Origin: an uncultured Prevotellaceae bacterium
Lineage (GTDB): Bacteria; Bacteroidota; Bacteroidia; Bacteroidales; Bacteroidaceae
Assembly: GCA_902797505.1 (NCBI GenBank)
Contig: CADBSW010000157.1
Location: forward strand, 10,253 to 74,252
Length of the DNA stretch: 64,000 nt
Direction: 5' to 3'
Both the position numbers and the translations under genes were made by a program. Positions within the stretch are counted from its first letter, which is position 1; every line of letters begins with the position of its first letter. The notes below the pieces were generated by a model. That model was not told the origin of the DNA and searched no databases. It worked only from the letters and a program-made list of their open reading frames with translations. Shown piece by piece: positions 3,323 to 37,503 of this stretch.

Positions 3323-4195
3323 TTATCCGAGATACTTCATCAGGATCTTGGCATTACCACTCTCACGAAGTTTAGTAATACTCTTCTCACGAATCTGACG
3401 GACACGCTCACGGGTAAGACCGAGCTGATCACCGATCTCTTCCAGTCCTTTCTCCGGGCGCCCGATACCGAAGCACTCACAGATAATGATACGCTCCCGG
3501 TCTTTCAACACTTTATTAAGGACTGACTCTAACTCTTGAGCCATACTCTCGTGGTCTACCTGGCGGTCTGTACGACTGTCGTCACCACTGGGCATCACAT
3601 CGAGCATACAGTTGTCCTCACCATCCTGGAAGGGGGCGTCGATACTTACATGATGACCGTCGGCAGCAAGACTCTGTCCGATCTTCTCTTCGTCGATATT
3701 CGTAGCGGCACTCAACTCCGATACAGACGGATGGCGCTGATGCTCTTGCTCAAACTTATTAATCTCATGGTTGATCTTGCTCAGTGATCCCACCTGGTTA
3801 AGGGGCAGACGTACGATACGACTCTGCTCAGCAATTGCCTGGAGGATGCTCTGACGAATCCACCATACAGCATAGGAGATGAATTTGAAACCACGTGTCT
3901 CATCAAACTTCTGTGCTGCCTTGATTAATCCGATGTTACCTTCATCGATTAAGTCTGTCAGTGTCAGTCCTTGGTGTTGATATTGCTTGGCTACAGAAAC
4001 AACAAATCGCAGGTTGGCGGTAACCAACTTGTTCTTTGCGCGCTCTCCTTCCGGTCCTCCTTTCTTAATCTTTTGTGCCAGTTCAATCTCCTCATCAATA
4101 GAGATAAGTGGCGCGCGACCAATTTCTACCAGATACTTATCCAGTGCCTCACTAGACCGGTTAGTGATGCTTTTTTGTATTTTAAGTTGTCTCAT
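3323..4195 (-). CDS. rpoD: Primary RNA polymerase sigma factor, Bacteroidota short form lacking region 1.1
   Basis: MRQLKIxKSITNR start, NLRFVVSVAKQY, FDETRGFKFISYAVWWIRQ and TRERVRQI. Confidence 0.92.
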   Translation of the reverse strand: MRQLKIQKSITNRSSEALDKYLVEIGRAPLISIDEEIELAQKIKKGGPEGERAKNKLVTANLRFVVSVAKQYQHQGLTLTDLIDEGNIGLIKAAQKFDETRGFKFISYAVWWIRQSILQAIAEQSRIVRLPLNQVGSLSKINHEINKFEQEHQRHPSVSELSAATNIDEEKIGQSLAADGHHVSIDAPFQDGEDNCMLDVMPSGDDSRTDRQVDHESMAQELESVLNKVLKDRERIIICECFGIGRPEKGLEEIGDQLGLTRERVRQIREKSITKLRESGNAKILMKYLG

Positions 4196-33611: not shown

Positions 33612-33631
33612 TTCCTTATCAACATATCATG

Positions 33632-33666
33632 AAAGGTCGTGTCGGGTTCTTGACACGGCCTTTTTT
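33632..33666 (+). terminator. Intrinsic terminator of the rnf operon
   Basis: Stem AAAGGTCGTGTC / GACACGGCCTTT with a T-run. Confidence 0.85.
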
Positions 33667-33765
33667 ATATTTATCATGTAAGCTATATTACCATACGAAA
33701 ATATTTTTGTCTGATAAAAAATGGTTAAAGTGTATAATAATCTTGGAGAAAACCTATTTTTCGTG

Positions 33766-33773
33766 TATATTTG
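33766..33773 (+). promoter_or_regulatory. -7 box (TATATTTG) for the STAS/PP2C cassette
   Basis: TAnnTTTG with a -33-like CTTG 20 nt upstream. Confidence 0.6.
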
Positions 33774-33802
33774 CATGATTTTGTAATCAATAATATAACT
33801 AT

Positions 33803-34978
33803 ATGACAACAAAATTCAACGTAGATATTTCAGACAAAAACCATATAGCAGTAAGTGGACGTATCGACTCGTCAAATGCACAAGCATTTGAAAGTTGTTT
33901 AAGTGCGTATATCTCTCAGAAATTTGACACACTGACTATCGATGCAGAAAAACTTACATACATTTCCTCTGCTGGTTTACGTGTGCTGATCAAACTGCGG
34001 AGAAATGCTGAGAATACAATTACCATTGAGAATACGACAGATGATGTCTATCAGATATTTGACATGACAGGTTTCTCACAACTCTTCAAGGTGAAGAAAG
34101 GATTTCGGCGACTGAGTGTGGAAGGGTGTCCTGTCATTGGTACCGGGTTCTACGGGACAGTTTATCGTATAGATCCAGATACCATAGTGAAGGTTTTTCA
34201 TCCTTCGTGTGGTATGCAGCAAATAGAAGAAGAGCAGACAAAAGCTAAAGCAGCTTTCCTGAAAGGTATTCCTACAGCAATCAGTTATGATATCGTCAAG
34301 GTAGATGATTCATACGGACTGGTTTTTGAGATGCTCAAGTCTGAGTCATTCAATGACTTGATTATTCAGTATCCAGAACAGATAGATGAGAATATCAAGA
34401 GATGGAGTGATCTGTTGAAGAAGGTTCATTCCACCACTATGGATCCGGGAGTATTACCTTCTGCTAAGGCGATACACCTGAACTATCTTGAAGTGGTGAG
34501 GGATTACCTGGATGATGCCCAATATAACTATCTTCATGCATTTCTTGAGAAGATACCTAACCGCATGACTGTCGTACACGGAGACTATCAGATGAAGAAC
34601 GTGATGCTCTCAGATGATGAGCCCATGCTGATAGATATGGAGACATTGGCTGTTGGTCATCCCATCTTTGATATGGCAGGAATATATGTCACGTATCAAA
34701 TGTTTGAAGAGGATGAACCAGGCAATACGATGGCGTTCTATGGTATCCCAGCTTCAACATGCGATTACATCTGGGACAAGCTGTTAGAGTATTACCTTGA
34801 GACCAATGATGCTGCCATCATCCAGAGTGAGACTAAAAAGATCAAGTTGATCGCAGCCGTCAGATTCTTGTACATACTGGCAATCAGTGATCTGAAAGAA
34901 GGTCCTCTCGGTGAACGGCGCATCCGTCATACGAAGGAACATATTGGTGAATTAATGAATCAAATGGAAAATCTATAA
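33803..34978 (+). CDS. STAS (anti-anti-sigma) domain fused to an APH/protein-kinase-like phosphotransferase
   Basis: STAS: SGRIDSSNA...LTYISSAGLRVL...IFDMTGF. Kinase: IGTGFYGTVY, IVKVF, HGDYQMKNVM and LIDME. Confidence 0.85.
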   Translation: MTTKFNVDISDKNHIAVSGRIDSSNAQAFESCLSAYISQKFDTLTIDAEKLTYISSAGLRVLIKLRRNAENTITIENTTDDVYQIFDMTGFSQLFKVKKGFRRLSVEGCPVIGTGFYGTVYRIDPDTIVKVFHPSCGMQQIEEEQTKAKAAFLKGIPTAISYDIVKVDDSYGLVFEMLKSESFNDLIIQYPEQIDENIKRWSDLLKKVHSTTMDPGVLPSAKAIHLNYLEVVRDYLDDAQYNYLHAFLEKIPNRMTVVHGDYQMKNVMLSDDEPMLIDMETLAVGHPIFDMAGIYVTYQMFEEDEPGNTMAFYGIPASTCDYIWDKLLEYYLETNDAAIIQSETKKIKLIAAVRFLYILAISDLKEGPLGERRIRHTKEHIGELMNQMENL

Positions 34979-34985
34979 ATAATAG

Positions 34986-37199
34986 ATGAGCATATTCGAC
35001 AGGTGGCGTAAGAGCTATGAAACAAAATTCAGTCTTGCAATCTTCATCACGGTTGCGCTGTTGATAGAGGCGATTATAGGCATACAGTATCTGTATGCCC
35101 AAAAGTCTATCCGCAAGGAGATGAAGCACCGTGCGCAAACAGAATTGAAAGTGAAAAGTCTGGAGATTCAGGGAGTACTGAATGCCATAGAGGTAGCCGC
35201 AAAGAACCAAGCATGGAATGTTGAGCGACTGCTTGCTTATCCAGACTCTATGTATAAGGTCACTGAGCGCTTGGTAACACAAGACGAACTGATCATAGGT
35301 GTTGGTGTCCTCTTTGTCCCCAACTATTATCCTTCAAAGGGATATTGGTATGAGCCTTATGTAAGAGATGAAGGAACAGGATATATAGAGAAACGACAAC
35401 TGGGTGGAAAGAATCACGATTACACAAAGACAGATTTCTTTAATATCCCCCTTCAAGGTGACTCTGCATTTTGGAGTGAGCCATATCTCGACAAGGATGG
35501 TGCAAGGACCATGGTTATTACCTATTGTTATCCTATCCATGATAAAAACGGAAAAGTAGTAGCCATCCTTGGAACAGATGTCTCGCTTGACTGGTTGGGA
35601 GAACTTATGAATGCCTCGCCAGCCTACCCTTCATCTACCAATATGATTTTATCTCGTACAGGACAGGTGATGGCTTGTCCTGTGGAAAGTCTTGTCATGA
35701 AGAGTACCATCATGGAAGTTACTGCCAATATGAAAGACACCACGGTACGTAGCCTCAACAAGAGGATGTTGTCTGGATACACAGGTAGCGCTACTGTCAC
35801 TAATAACGAAGGAGAAAAACAGTATGTGTTCTATGCCCCCATCAAGGGTTCTACAGGTTGGTCAATGGCTGTGACATGTCCGGGTAAGGAAATATACCAG
35901 GGCTTGTCGAAGATGCGGCATAACCTTCAACTGATGAGTCTGCTCGGTTTCCTTCTACTGTTGTATATCATCACCCGTACGGTGAAGAATTTCAATCATG
36001 TACAGGAAGTCAATAAAGAGAAAGAGCGTATCGACAGTGAGCTCCATATTGCCAATGGCATCCAGATGGGTATGCTTCCAACGAGTTTCGTATTCACCCC
36101 GGCACGTAGTGATGTGGATATATATGGTTCTCTGGTACCTGCAAAGGCTGTTGGAGGCGATTTATACGATTTCTACGTCCGTGACGAGAAACTCTTTTTC
36201 TGTATTGGTGACGTCAGTGGAAAAGGTGTGCCGGCAGCATTAGTGATGGCTGTCATCCGCAGTTCTTTCCGCACGTCATCCATGATGGAGTCAACTCCAG
36301 ATAGAATACTTAGTCAGATAAATGATAGTGTATCAGACATTAACGATGAGAATATGTTTGCCACACTGTTGGTAGGAACCTTGGATCTTCCCACGGGTAG
36401 ACTGCACTATAGTAATGCTGGTCATTGTCCACCTCTGCTCATTGGATCCGGTGTCGGTTATCTTCCTTTGGATGCAAATATTCCAGTAGGACTATTGAAA
36501 GGTTGGCGTTACAATGCACAATATGTGATGATAGAACCGCAGACTACGCTCTTCTTATATACCGACGGACTGACAGAAGCCGAGAAAGAAGACTACGAAC
36601 AATTCGGGAAAGACAGAATGTTCGAGACTGCCGAAACACTTTTAGAGAAAGGGCAACACAGTCCGAAACAGACTATTGAGCGGATGACAGAGGCTGTGAA
36701 CGGTTTTGTAGGTGACAATGAAAAGAGCGATGACCTTACCATGTTGGCTATTCAGTACACTAAAGAAGCGCTCGAGATACAAATGGAACGTCATCTCACG
36801 TTGGAGAATAACCTGGATTCCATTCCACAGTTGAATGAGTTTGTGGATGGTATCTCTGAGGAGTTGGGCTTCGATATGTCAACAACGATGAAGCTGAACC
36901 TTGCCATAGAGGAAGCAGTAGTCAATATTATCAACTACGCATATCCGGAAGGTACCAAAGGATTCGTGAATATTGATGCCTCATCCAATGATGTCCGATT
37001 AAAGTTCGTTATTACGGATGAGGGTACTCCATTTGATCCCACTACCAGAAAAGAGGTTGATACGACATTACCTGTTGAGGAACGACCTATTGGTGGACTG
37101 GGAATATTGTTGGTACGTAAGTTGATGGACTCCATTAACTATGAACGTATTGATGGAAAAAACGTGTTAACATTAAGAAAAAACCTAATTAAAGATTGA
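34986..37199 (+). CDS. Membrane sensor: dCache domain, SpoIIE/PP2C phosphatase and RsbW-like HATPase kinase
   Basis: Two TM helices around a Cache domain (WSEPYLD...ITYCYPI...GTDVSL). PP2C motifs VGGDLYDF, IGDVSGKG, YTDGLTEA and DDLTML. HATPase motifs EEAVVNIINYAY, DEGTPFDP and GGLGILLV. Confidence 0.9.
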   Translation: MSIFDRWRKSYETKFSLAIFITVALLIEAIIGIQYLYAQKSIRKEMKHRAQTELKVKSLEIQGVLNAIEVAAKNQAWNVERLLAYPDSMYKVTERLVTQDELIIGVGVLFVPNYYPSKGYWYEPYVRDEGTGYIEKRQLGGKNHDYTKTDFFNIPLQGDSAFWSEPYLDKDGARTMVITYCYPIHDKNGKVVAILGTDVSLDWLGELMNASPAYPSSTNMILSRTGQVMACPVESLVMKSTIMEVTANMKDTTVRSLNKRMLSGYTGSATVTNNEGEKQYVFYAPIKGSTGWSMAVTCPGKEIYQGLSKMRHNLQLMSLLGFLLLLYIITRTVKNFNHVQEVNKEKERIDSELHIANGIQMGMLPTSFVFTPARSDVDIYGSLVPAKAVGGDLYDFYVRDEKLFFCIGDVSGKGVPAALVMAVIRSSFRTSSMMESTPDRILSQINDSVSDINDENMFATLLVGTLDLPTGRLHYSNAGHCPPLLIGSGVGYLPLDANIPVGLLKGWRYNAQYVMIEPQTTLFLYTDGLTEAEKEDYEQFGKDRMFETAETLLEKGQHSPKQTIERMTEAVNGFVGDNEKSDDLTMLAIQYTKEALEIQMERHLTLENNLDSIPQLNEFVDGISEELGFDMSTTMKLNLAIEEAVVNIINYAYPEGTKGFVNIDASSNDVRLKFVITDEGTPFDPTTRKEVDTTLPVEERPIGGLGILLVRKLMDSINYERIDGKNVLTLRKNLIKD

Positions 37200-37200
37200 T

Positions 37201-37503
37201 ATGAAAACGACATTTAAAGTAGAAGACAATAACTACGTTATGTACTTTGAAGGTAGGCTCGACACTGCAGTAAGTGCCGTGGTACAGAAAGAGGTAAGTG
37301 TGTTGAATGACTGTGAAGGTCATGATGTGATACTCGACTGCACGGATCTTAAATACATATCATCCAGTGGTATGCGTATCTTCCTGAATATCCTAAAAAA
37401 TGCAAAGGCAAAGAGTAGCCATGTGTATATCAGGAATGTCAGCGAGGATATTCTTTCTGTGTTGAGTATTACAGGCTTTACTAATATTTTTGATTTCATC
37501 TAA
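37201..37503 (+). CDS. Stand-alone STAS anti-sigma-factor antagonist
   Basis: Motifs EGRLDT, LKYISSSGMRIFL and VLSITGF. Confidence 0.9.
   Translation: MKTTFKVEDNNYVMYFEGRLDTAVSAVVQKEVSVLNDCEGHDVILDCTDLKYISSSGMRIFLNILKNAKAKSSHVYIRNVSEDILSVLSITGFTNIFDFI

What the first reader, a model, noticed from the sequence alone, without database searches (positions are those of the whole stretch)
33766..37503. Sigma-less partner-switching cassette whose likely output is a STAS-kinase fusion
Seen: three tightly spaced genes (7-bp and 1-bp gaps) with their own -7 promoter after the rnf terminator. (a) A STAS domain is fused to an intact APH/ePK-like kinase (GxGxxGxVY, VK, HGDxxxxN, DxE). (b) A 2-TM dCache sensor carries both a PP2C phosphatase and an RsbW-type HATPase kinase in one chain. 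(c) A free STAS follows. Both STAS domains keep the phospho-acceptor serine region (YISSAG, YISSSG). Established: RsbU/RsbV/RsbW and SpoIIE/AA/AB modules normally control a SigB/SigF-type sigma factor. No such sigma gene is in the cassette or window, and to my knowledge Bacteroidales are not known for one. Inference: a periplasmic ligand toggles the phosphatase/kinase balance, and STAS phosphorylation switches the fused kinase, giving a phosphorelay with an enzymatic rather than transcriptional output.
Basis: partly seen in the sequence, partly recalled or inferred. Interest (0 to 1): 0.8.

Follow-up and report, generated by a model that had tools for sequence, protein, structure and literature searches.

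The report
Sigma-less phospho-switch wired to borrowed kinase
A rumen Prevotella carries a membrane sensor of the type that usually switches sigma factors, next to an unstudied kinase with a built-in switch domain that was likely acquired from Firmicutes, and the sensor likely turns that kinase on and off directly, as one of several apparently interchangeable outputs.

Summary
The three genes, the gaps, the motifs and the -7 element are real. Gene A is a STAS domain fused to an intact APH-fold kinase, gene B is dCache-PP2C-RsbW-type HATPase, gene C is a free STAS. No SigB/F/G-type sigma was found in 40 Bacteroidaceae genomes, though the window holds an unlinked RpoD-like gene. Linkage is strong: 19 of 33 Bacteroidaceae STAS-kinase loci have a PP2C or HATPase within 6 kb, and 47 of 48 kinase-bearing Prevotella genomes have the HATPase. 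The kinase is optional, however: it was not found in 145 of 192 HATPase-bearing genomes, where alarmone synthetases or transporters often take the slot. The cassette is a mosaic, a Firmicutes-type kinase beside a native sensor (AU p=0.009). Covariation places the STAS on the kinase N-lobe. Best reading (0.55): B likely phosphorylates and dephosphorylates both STAS serines, switching a small-molecule kinase of unknown substrate. Direct enzyme control by such modules is published (Anabaena All4160, Pseudomonas SiaABCD); I found no paper on this family. The scan found this family before on other DNA. New variant of a known kind.

The parts
33631..33670 (+). Intrinsic-terminator-like hairpin and T run after rnfA; upstream boundary of the cassette
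   Evidence: 15-pair stem; RNA contigs of two studies stop at 33619 and 33576 (weak hint)
33716..33730 (+). Conserved 15-bp upstream element, possible operator (function untested)
   Evidence: invariant in 4 of 4 aligned relatives; its 12-bp core occurs once in the genome
33742..33773 (+). Predicted Bacteroidota-type promoter: -33-like CTTG (33742-45) and -7 TATATTTG (33766-73); consensus recalled
   Evidence: RNA contigs restart at 33804 and 33820 while two runs of unrecorded kind run through
33803..34978 (+). Gene A, 391 aa: STAS (1-98, predicted phospho-acceptor S56) fused to an APH/choline-kinase-fold kinase (100-391), TIGR02172-related but below its cut-off
34986..37199 (+). Gene B, 737 aa: TM-dCache-TM-PP2C(SpoIIE)-RsbW-type HATPase; predicted bifunctional STAS phosphatase and kinase
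37201..37503 (+). Gene C, 100 aa: free STAS (predicted phospho-acceptor S55); the most conserved part of the cassette
   Evidence: (TIGR00377 above cut-off)

Best explanation
Gene B encodes a membrane sensor with a PP2C domain and an RsbW-type HATPase domain that likely removes and adds phosphate on a conserved serine in the two STAS domains, and the STAS fused to gene A's APH-fold kinase is predicted to switch that kinase directly, with no sigma factor likely involved. Shown: domain content, intact catalytic residues, purifying selection, genomic coupling, and no SigB/F/G in the genomes searched. Inferred: (1) an unknown periplasmic ligand, or a THI5-like binding protein in relatives, sets B's phosphatase/kinase balance; (2) B acts on A-S56 and C-S55; (3) the fused STAS sits on the kinase N-lobe, touching helix alphaC (K98-E142) and the beta2-beta3 loop (S23-D126); (4) the unphosphorylated STAS holds the kinase active and phospho-S56 near D124/D126 turns it off (direction about 55:45, by analogy with All4160); (5) the kinase phosphorylates a small molecule (about 65%) rather than a protein; (6) free STAS C buffers B and probably also reaches other targets. 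The kinase gene is one plug-in output of a widespread Bacteroidales sensor-STAS core, here likely acquired from Firmicutes.
For: Coupling: 47 of 48 kinase-bearing Prevotella genomes have an RsbW-type HATPase, against 145 of 352 others (kin and habitat not corrected for). 19 of 33 Bacteroidaceae STAS-kinase loci have PP2C or HATPase within 6 kb, 14 of 33 both; my rough chance figure is about 1%. Single-chain fusions of STAS-kinase with the HATPase exist in both orders (L186, L195, P0185, P0207). Re-association: the window's kinase groups with Firmicutes (SH-aLRT 97), and one clade with 16 native STAS-kinases is rejected (AU p=0.009). B's PP2C nests among Bacteroidales sensors that carry native-clade kinases in the same slot. 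S56 is kept in 146 of 147 diverse fusions; K130, D278 and N266 in 147 of 147. dN/dS is about 0.1-0.2 against near relatives. Covariation: K98-E142 (z 8.7, charge swaps) and S23-D126 (z 7.1), against a best of 4.6 and 5.2 in two random pairings. Complex model of kinase with its own STAS: weak support, 0.47 against a best control of 0.03, runs agreeing in at least 44% of contacts, partner pLDDT at least 86. That mark was reached by 116 of 157 solved and 2 of 215 mismatched pairs, but at 0.60 or under by only 18 of the 157 and by both mismatches; these are two halves of one chain. Fold: APH/choline/antibiotic/sugar kinases tied at Z 15-17 (rmsd 4-6 A over 227-279 residues), YihE at 13.4. Precedent: All4160 (PMC13555669, abstract and Discussion).
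Against: No biochemical step was tested. 14 of 33 Bacteroidaceae STAS-kinase loci, 13 of 19 Firmicutes genome loci and 59 of 73 metagenome loci (many short) have no PP2C or HATPase nearby. STAS-less members of the same kinase family exist and are the true TIGR02172 members, so the kinase fold does not need a STAS. The free STAS (92% and 86% identity) is far more conserved than the fused STAS (66% and 61%), which points to C as the main hub. Covariation rests on 304 sequences, and the phylogeny-preserving control was ill-conditioned and uninformative. Substrate and ligand are unidentified. The group for the AU test was named after a first tree had been seen.
Confidence: 0.55

Rival explanations
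1. The free STAS C is the real output and acts in trans on other proteins (transporter, NRPS, alarmone synthetase). A's STAS is structural, or only a decoy substrate, and its phosphorylation does not change kinase activity.
For: C is the most constrained part. Most modules lack the kinase. Of 20 sensor loci picked from kinase-less genomes, 9 have an alarmone synthetase, 9 an ABCG-type transporter plus lipoprotein and 2 an SLC13 transporter. This genome has free STAS genes beside an NRPS and an SLC13 transporter. SypA and RbaV are free-STAS outputs (PMC8256260, passages).
Against: S56 of the fused STAS is nearly invariant across 147 diverse proteins. There are STAS-to-N-lobe covariation signals. 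A kinase of a different lineage occupies the same slot beside native sensors.
Confidence: 0.2
2. Canonical partner switch with an unlinked sigma: B's HATPase sequesters RpoD, the second RpoD-like sigma (window 3323-4195) or an ECF sigma, and the STAS domains release it.
For: Unlinked targets are known: Chlamydia sigma66 (PMC8256260, passages) and Anabaena SigC/SigE (PMC13712970, passages). The genome has 39 Sigma70_r2 matches and two RpoD-like genes.
Against: 0 of 40 Bacteroidaceae genomes reach the SigB/F/G cut-off (best 128 bits against 234). 0 of 33 STAS-kinase loci have a sigma within 6 kb. G143 (99% complete) has the cassette and a single RpoD-like hit. The acidic RsbV/SpoIIAA Glu21 that repels the sigma (PMC7340262, passages) is Arg in A and C and in 38 of 43 Bacteroidales free STAS. 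The RsbW Arg23 position holds no Arg in 58 of 58 HATPases that could be read. These residue changes are suggestive only; some sigma-controlling systems may share them (recalled, untested).
Confidence: 0.12
3. The APH-fold enzyme is a protein or peptide kinase, either an input that phosphorylates STAS or B, or a relay to protein targets undone by the tyrosine-phosphatase-family or PHP partners.
For: The glycine-rich loop is canonical. Y_phosphatase3 genes sit beside 13 of 25 STAS-less kinases, and PHP fusions exist. Peptide and protein kinases (TvaE, LxmK, YihE) share the fold.
Against: The best fold matches are small-molecule kinases, there is no activation segment, and the HGDxxxxN and DxE...GxPxxD motifs are APH-type. 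B already supplies a STAS kinase. Many of the neighbouring phosphatases have signal-peptide-like N-termini (read by eye). Only 2 of 33 STAS-kinase loci have one.
Confidence: 0.1
4. Gene A is an antibiotic-inactivating phosphotransferase whose activity is gated by the sensor.
For: APH(3') and amicoumacin kinase top the fold lists; the gene is horizontally acquired; the sensor is periplasmic.
Against: Identity to those enzymes is 11-19% and the Z-scores tie with choline, sugar and MTR kinases. No mobile element or resistance gene was seen in the flanks.
Confidence: 0.03

Closest known systems
Anabaena PCC 7120 HenR / Alr3423 / All4160 (PMC13555669)
   Same: A SpoIIE-type phosphatase and a STAS-directed kinase control an enzyme that carries its own STAS domain, without a sigma factor.
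   Different: There the enzyme is a glycosyltransferase, kinase and phosphatase are separate proteins, and the input is a receiver domain. Here the enzyme is an APH-fold kinase and one membrane dCache sensor holds both activities.
Pseudomonas aeruginosa SiaABCD (10.1101/674879; PMC8457831)
   Same: A PP2C and kinase pair balances the phosphorylation of a STAS-like protein that controls an enzyme; B's PP2C region matches the SiaA model below its cut-off.
   Different: SiaC is a free protein phosphorylated on Thr68, the output is a diguanylate cyclase, and the kinase is a separate gene.
Vibrio fischeri SypE / SypA (PMC8256260)
   Same: Kinase and phosphatase in one chain act on Ser56 of a STAS; no sigma target is known.
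   Different: SypE is a response regulator (recalled); there is no STAS-fused enzyme and no dCache sensor in it.
Bacillus RsbU-RsbV-RsbW / SpoIIE-AA-AB and Chlamydia RsbU-RsbV-RsbW
   Same: Same three domain types and the same acceptor serine; RsbW (6m36) and RsbV are the closest solved relatives.
   Different: No SigB/F/G in these genomes; Glu21 of STAS and Arg23 of the kinase are not kept; the kinase is membrane-tethered.
TIGR02172 family (uncharacterised APH-like proteins)
   Same: Same kinase family; a STAS-less Prevotella relative scores 263 bits, above the cut-off.
   Different: Gene A scores 123 against a cut-off of 228 and belongs to a STAS-fused sister group.

Membership tests
Canonical sigma partner switch (RsbUVW / SpoIIE-AA-AB) | PP2C (SpoIIE) phosphatase with metal-binding aspartates | tested here: met
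   PF07228 E 1.5e-47; GGDLYD, IGDVSGKG, YTDGLTE and SDDLT motifs at 390, 407, 525, 581 (motif roles recalled)
Canonical sigma partner switch (RsbUVW / SpoIIE-AA-AB) | RsbW/SpoIIAB-type HATPase with N, G1 and G2 boxes and the catalytic Glu | tested here: met
   PF13581 E 1.9e-24; aligns to RsbW 6m36, E643 = Glu49
Canonical sigma partner switch (RsbUVW / SpoIIE-AA-AB) | STAS antagonist with the acceptor serine | tested here: met
   A-S56 and C-S55 align with RsbV Ser56
Canonical sigma partner switch (RsbUVW / SpoIIE-AA-AB) | Cognate SigB/SigF/SigG-type sigma factor | tested here: not met
   0 of 40 Bacteroidaceae genomes over the TIGR02980 cut-off, own genome 84% complete; control rang over the cut-off in 1 of 14 genomes
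Canonical sigma partner switch (RsbUVW / SpoIIE-AA-AB) | Acidic STAS residue (Glu21) and kinase Arg23 of the docking and sigma-release site | tested here: not met
   Arg at A20 and C19; Asn at B617; no Arg in 58 of 58 HATPases read (PMC7340262)
Canonical sigma partner switch (RsbUVW / SpoIIE-AA-AB) | The kinase binds and releases some sigma factor | not testable with these tools
   needs pull-down or two-hybrid
Partner-switching-like direct enzyme control (All4160 type) | Enzyme with a fused STAS that keeps the acceptor serine, coupled to a STAS kinase and phosphatase | tested here: met
Partner-switching-like direct enzyme control (All4160 type) | STAS phosphorylation changes the enzyme's function | not testable with these tools
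   only indirect signals:
APH / choline-kinase superfamily | Kinase-like fold with Lys, Glu, HxDxxxxN and Asp | tested here: met
   PF01636 above cut-off; model pLDDT 94.7; Z 15-17; residues conserved
APH / choline-kinase superfamily | Assignment to one substrate class | tested here: inconclusive
   top matches tied within 1-2 Z at 11-19% identity
TIGR02172 | Score above the curated cut-off (228.2 bits) | tested here: not met
   123 bits
dCache_1AM amine sensors | Amine motif (PctD R103, D133, W155, F188, Y189, M215, S217, D235) | tested here: inconclusive
   F151/F152, V177, T179 and D198 fit; the W155 position appears to be V126 and the R-D pair was not found; mapped by eye from partial alignments to 3LIB and 6D8V
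Kinase + alarmone hydrolase cassette described in earlier scan notes | Linked HD_4 hydrolase | tested here: not met
   0 of 33 Bacteroidaceae STAS-kinase loci; the own genome (84% complete) shows only one long RelA/SpoT

The most novel reading that the evidence does not exclude
Rumen Bacteroidales and Firmicutes share an undescribed plug-and-play signalling system. A Cache-PP2C-HATPase/STAS core drives swappable enzymatic outputs (this APH-fold kinase, alarmone synthetase and hydrolase, transporters). The fused STAS acts as an intramolecular partner switch on the kinase's alphaC helix, and the kinase makes an unknown phosphorylated second messenger. The interface is portable enough that a Firmicutes kinase replaced the native one in place.
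Probability: 0.2. Interest if true: 0.8.

Novelty: new variant of a known kind. Interest (0 to 1): 0.5.

Why it matters
Partner-switch modules occur in about half of the sampled Prevotella genomes (192 of 400) although no SigB/F/G-type sigma was found in the 40 Bacteroidaceae genomes tested, and I found no paper on them. This three-gene cassette is a minimal version in which sensor, switch and a candidate output can be purified and tested together. It gives residue-level predictions (S56, K98-E142, S23-D126) for how a STAS domain could control a kinase-fold enzyme. It also points to a large orphan kinase family (1,081 clusters at 50% identity with E up to 1e-30) of rumen and gut bacteria. The principle of direct enzyme control is already published, which caps the surprise.

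Tried and rejected
Literature: searches found no paper on STAS-APH fusions, TIGR02172 or Bacteroidales partner switches; most subscription papers are not covered and no supplements were opened. The amine-motif dataset (bioRxiv supplement, closed) might list relatives of B. Ligand prediction for the dCache domain failed: the amino-acid motif Arg is absent and the amine motif is only partly met. Substrate assignment by fold and by the Atlas gave only generic APH. An obligate link to an alarmone hydrolase, as earlier notes describe for Firmicutes, was rejected for Bacteroidaceae STAS-kinases (0 of 33) and was uncommon in my Firmicutes samples (3 of 19 genome loci, 5 of 73 metagenome loci). A functional link to rnf or galE was rejected: these flanks occur only in the window's close clade, and rnfA abuts galE with no cassette in G001 (1 of the 2 of 5 genomes that had rnfA). 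The second RpoD paralog as dedicated target is disfavoured. The nearest-neighbour control for covariation produced duplicated halves that distorted the scale, so I do not use it. The search for related loci on genome contigs with the single protein gave only 4 loci. An order-wide search, sampled thinly per genus, found 4 of 350. RNA runs are contigs only: they cannot show strand, level or co-transcription. GC content does not mark the cassette against its downstream flank. The taxonomy of metagenome loci L103-L176 is not given; they were left out of the IQ-TREE tree and the AU test.
Full report
Observation. Pfam gives STAS + APH for A, dCache + SpoIIE + HATPase_c_2 for B and STAS for C. The catalytic motifs of the kinase, the PP2C and the HATPase and both acceptor serines are present. 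A hairpin terminator follows rnfA. The -7 element at 33766 (consensus recalled) is conserved in 4 of 4 aligned relatives. RNA contigs of two studies stop before the terminator and restart at 33804 and 33820, while two runs of unrecorded kind run through: a weak hint of an own start. Near-identical proteins are named Prevotella sp. and the runs are sheep and bovine gut. One correction: the window has an RpoD-like sigma gene at 3323-4195 (-), unlinked and not SigB/F/G-type.

The kinase. The AlphaFold model of A is confident (pLDDT 94.7, pTM 0.84). The STAS matches RsbV (Z 14.9, rmsd 1.6 A over 94 residues). The kinase domain ties among aminoglycoside, amicoumacin, choline, aminopropanol and MTR kinases at Z 15-17 and 11-16% identity, with YihE at 13.4. 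The substrate class is therefore open, and a small molecule is more likely. A is related to TIGR02172 but below its cut-off, while a STAS-less Prevotella relative is a true member. The family is large: 6,175 of 7,999 scored candidates at 90% clustering and 1,081 clusters at 50% identity with E up to 1e-30. In 147 diverse full-length members S56 is kept in 146, and K130, N266 and D278 in all. All three genes are under purifying selection.

Is the kinase coupled to the switch? In one sample of 400 genomes of the genus, 48 have the kinase family and 192 the RsbW-type HATPase. Comparing the two lists by hand, 47 of the 48 have both, against 145 of the other 352; relatedness and habitat are not corrected for. 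I fetched loci from 38 of the 48 genus genomes and 17 loci from the 27 family-level hit genomes. Of 33 STAS-kinase loci (window included), 19 have a PP2C or HATPase within 6 kb, 14 both, 13 a free STAS, none a sigma, none an HD hydrolase and one a synthetase. About 2.4 HATPase matches per 3-Mb genome would give roughly 1% by chance (my estimate). Fourteen loci are orphans; the five orphan genomes I checked all have PP2C and HATPase genes elsewhere. Linkage is weaker in Firmicutes genome loci (6 of 19) and metagenome loci (14 of 73, many short). Chains that fuse STAS-kinase with the HATPase exist in both orders.

The kinase is optional. It was not found in 145 of the 192 HATPase-bearing genomes, and this genome has a second sensor+STAS pair (C44) with no kinase beside it. 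In 20 sensor loci chosen from kinase-less genomes (top-scoring hits, not random), 9 hold a RelA/SpoT-type small synthetase, 9 an ABCG-type transporter with a lipoprotein, 6 a THI5-like binding protein and 2 an SLC13 transporter; one has an ECF sigma nearby. STAS-less kinases travel with tyrosine-phosphatase-family genes (13 of 25) and alarmone enzymes (10 of 25). The free STAS C is 92% and 86% identical in two relatives where the fused STAS is 66% and 61% and B 70-81%. The stable unit is thus sensor + free STAS, with variable outputs.

The cassette is a mosaic. In a 50-row IQ-TREE tree the window's kinase and three Bacteroidales relatives sit inside a group of 15 Firmicutes rows (SH-aLRT 97), apart from the 16 native Bacteroidales STAS-kinases. 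Holding the two Bacteroidales groups together is rejected (AU p=0.009; group named). The fused STAS is also closest to Firmicutes beyond its own clade. B's PP2C nests among Bacteroidales sensors, nearest L065, L063 and L094 in a FastTree tree; L065 and L063 carry native-clade kinases in the same upstream slot. The simplest reading is replacement in place or re-association after transfer, which implies selection for the pairing; the direction of transfer is inferred from nesting. The cassette appears inserted between rnfA and galE, which are adjacent in G001.

Sigma or not. None of 40 Bacteroidaceae genomes reaches the SigB/F/G cut-off. PMC7340262 (passages) describes Glu21 of RsbV/SpoIIAA as the residue that repels the sigma, and Arg23 of RsbW as bonding to Asp23 of RsbV. 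Here the STAS position is Arg (A20, C19; 38 of 43 Bacteroidales free STAS), and none of 58 HATPases read has Arg at the Arg23 position. Against certainty: unlinked sigma targets are known in Chlamydia (PMC8256260, part 1 of 5 and passages) and Anabaena (PMC13712970, passages), and this genome has 39 sigma region-2 matches.

How the switch could reach the kinase. Mean-field coupling analysis of 304 dereplicated fusions gives two inter-domain pairs above random pairings (best 4.6 and 5.2): K98-E142 (z 8.7, with Lys/Arg-Glu and Glu-Arg/Lys swaps), which links the end of the STAS to helix alphaC, and S23-D126 (z 7.1), which links the loop beside S56 to the N-lobe. The control that should keep relatedness failed. 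Folding the two domains as separate chains gave weak support: 0.47 against a best control of 0.03, at least 44% contact agreement, partner pLDDT at least 86. At 0.60 or under, only 18 of 157 solved complexes passed, and so did both mismatches that passed out of 215. The S23 loop is part of the surface that RsbW binds on RsbV (PMC7340262), so it could alternate between B's HATPase and A's own N-lobe. AlphaC position is a common kinase switch (established knowledge). These steps are inference.

The input. The dCache domain is closest to 3LIC, McpX (6D8V) and 3LIB, two of which define amine sensors (10.1101/2023.04.06.535858, passages and section 6). B keeps the aromatic pair, the hydrophobic-x-Thr and the Asp, but seems to lack the W155 equivalent and has no amino-acid-motif Arg. 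The ligand is unknown. A related uracil-binding subfamily exists (10.1101/2025.02.11.637667, passages).

Comparison and verdict. It works like Anabaena HenR/Alr3423/All4160, where phosphorylation of a fused STAS inhibits a glycosyltransferase (PMC13555669, abstract and Discussion), and like SiaABCD (10.1101/674879, abstract; PMC8457831, search listing). Similar modules were proposed for c-di-GMP enzymes in Campylobacterota (10.1101/2022.03.11.484041, passages). It is not a member of the canonical sigma switches. Searches found no paper on this kinase or on Bacteroidales modules. Earlier notes of this scan describe the family in Firmicutes and sensor-alarmone versions in Bacteroidales; I tested their claims only in part, and the hydrolase pairing does not hold here. 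Verdict: real, a new variant of a known kind, mechanism plausible but unproven; interest 0.5.

Noticed in passing
window 3323-4195 (-): Second RpoD-like sigma gene; the other RpoD-like gene is on G000:C46. Most sampled Prevotella genomes have two such genes, several other genera one.
   Followed up: partly
window 33716-33730: 15-bp element upstream of the promoter, invariant in four relatives and unique in the genome; possible operator of an unknown regulator.
   Followed up: partly
L056:929-8610 (G000:C183): Free STAS gene directly upstream of a 2446-aa two-module NRPS with a terminal reductase-like domain and a MatE exporter. L209 and L210 have a 2020-aa NRPS beside cytidylate-kinase-like, kinase and phosphatase genes.
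   Followed up: no
L003:206-2308 (G000:C6): SLC13/CitMHS-TrkA_C transporter followed by a free STAS; the same transporter sits between sensor and STAS in L063, L064, L078 and L084, a possible trans-regulated transporter.
   Followed up: partly
L077:8969-12732 and 8 other loci: A 960-aa White/ABCG-like transporter with a 266-aa helical lipoprotein of no Pfam family, lying between sensor and STAS (or beside the HATPase) in 9 of 20 kinase-less Prevotella loci.
   Followed up: partly
L073:9559-10995 (-): STAS + degenerate kinase (no glycine loop, Asn for the catalytic Asp) + AraC HTH: a possible pseudokinase transcription regulator beside a Cache-PP2C, HATPase, STAS operon.
   Followed up: no
L049, L050, L052, L074, L075, L208: Long operons joining STAS-less kinases, an alarmone synthetase, an HD hydrolase (fused to the kinase in L049 and L050), a tyrosine-phosphatase-family gene, a THI5-like binding protein and the sensor module; not every part is in every locus.
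   Followed up: partly
L099:5560-7761: Two extra genes for membrane proteins with N-terminal Cys-pair motifs lie between rnfA and the STAS-kinase in one close relative.
   Followed up: no
P0163-P0168, P0174, P0183, P0190: Rare fusions of the STAS-kinase with PHP, amidohydrolase, GH3, Na/H exchanger, HD-CE and poly(A)-polymerase-head domains.
   Followed up: no
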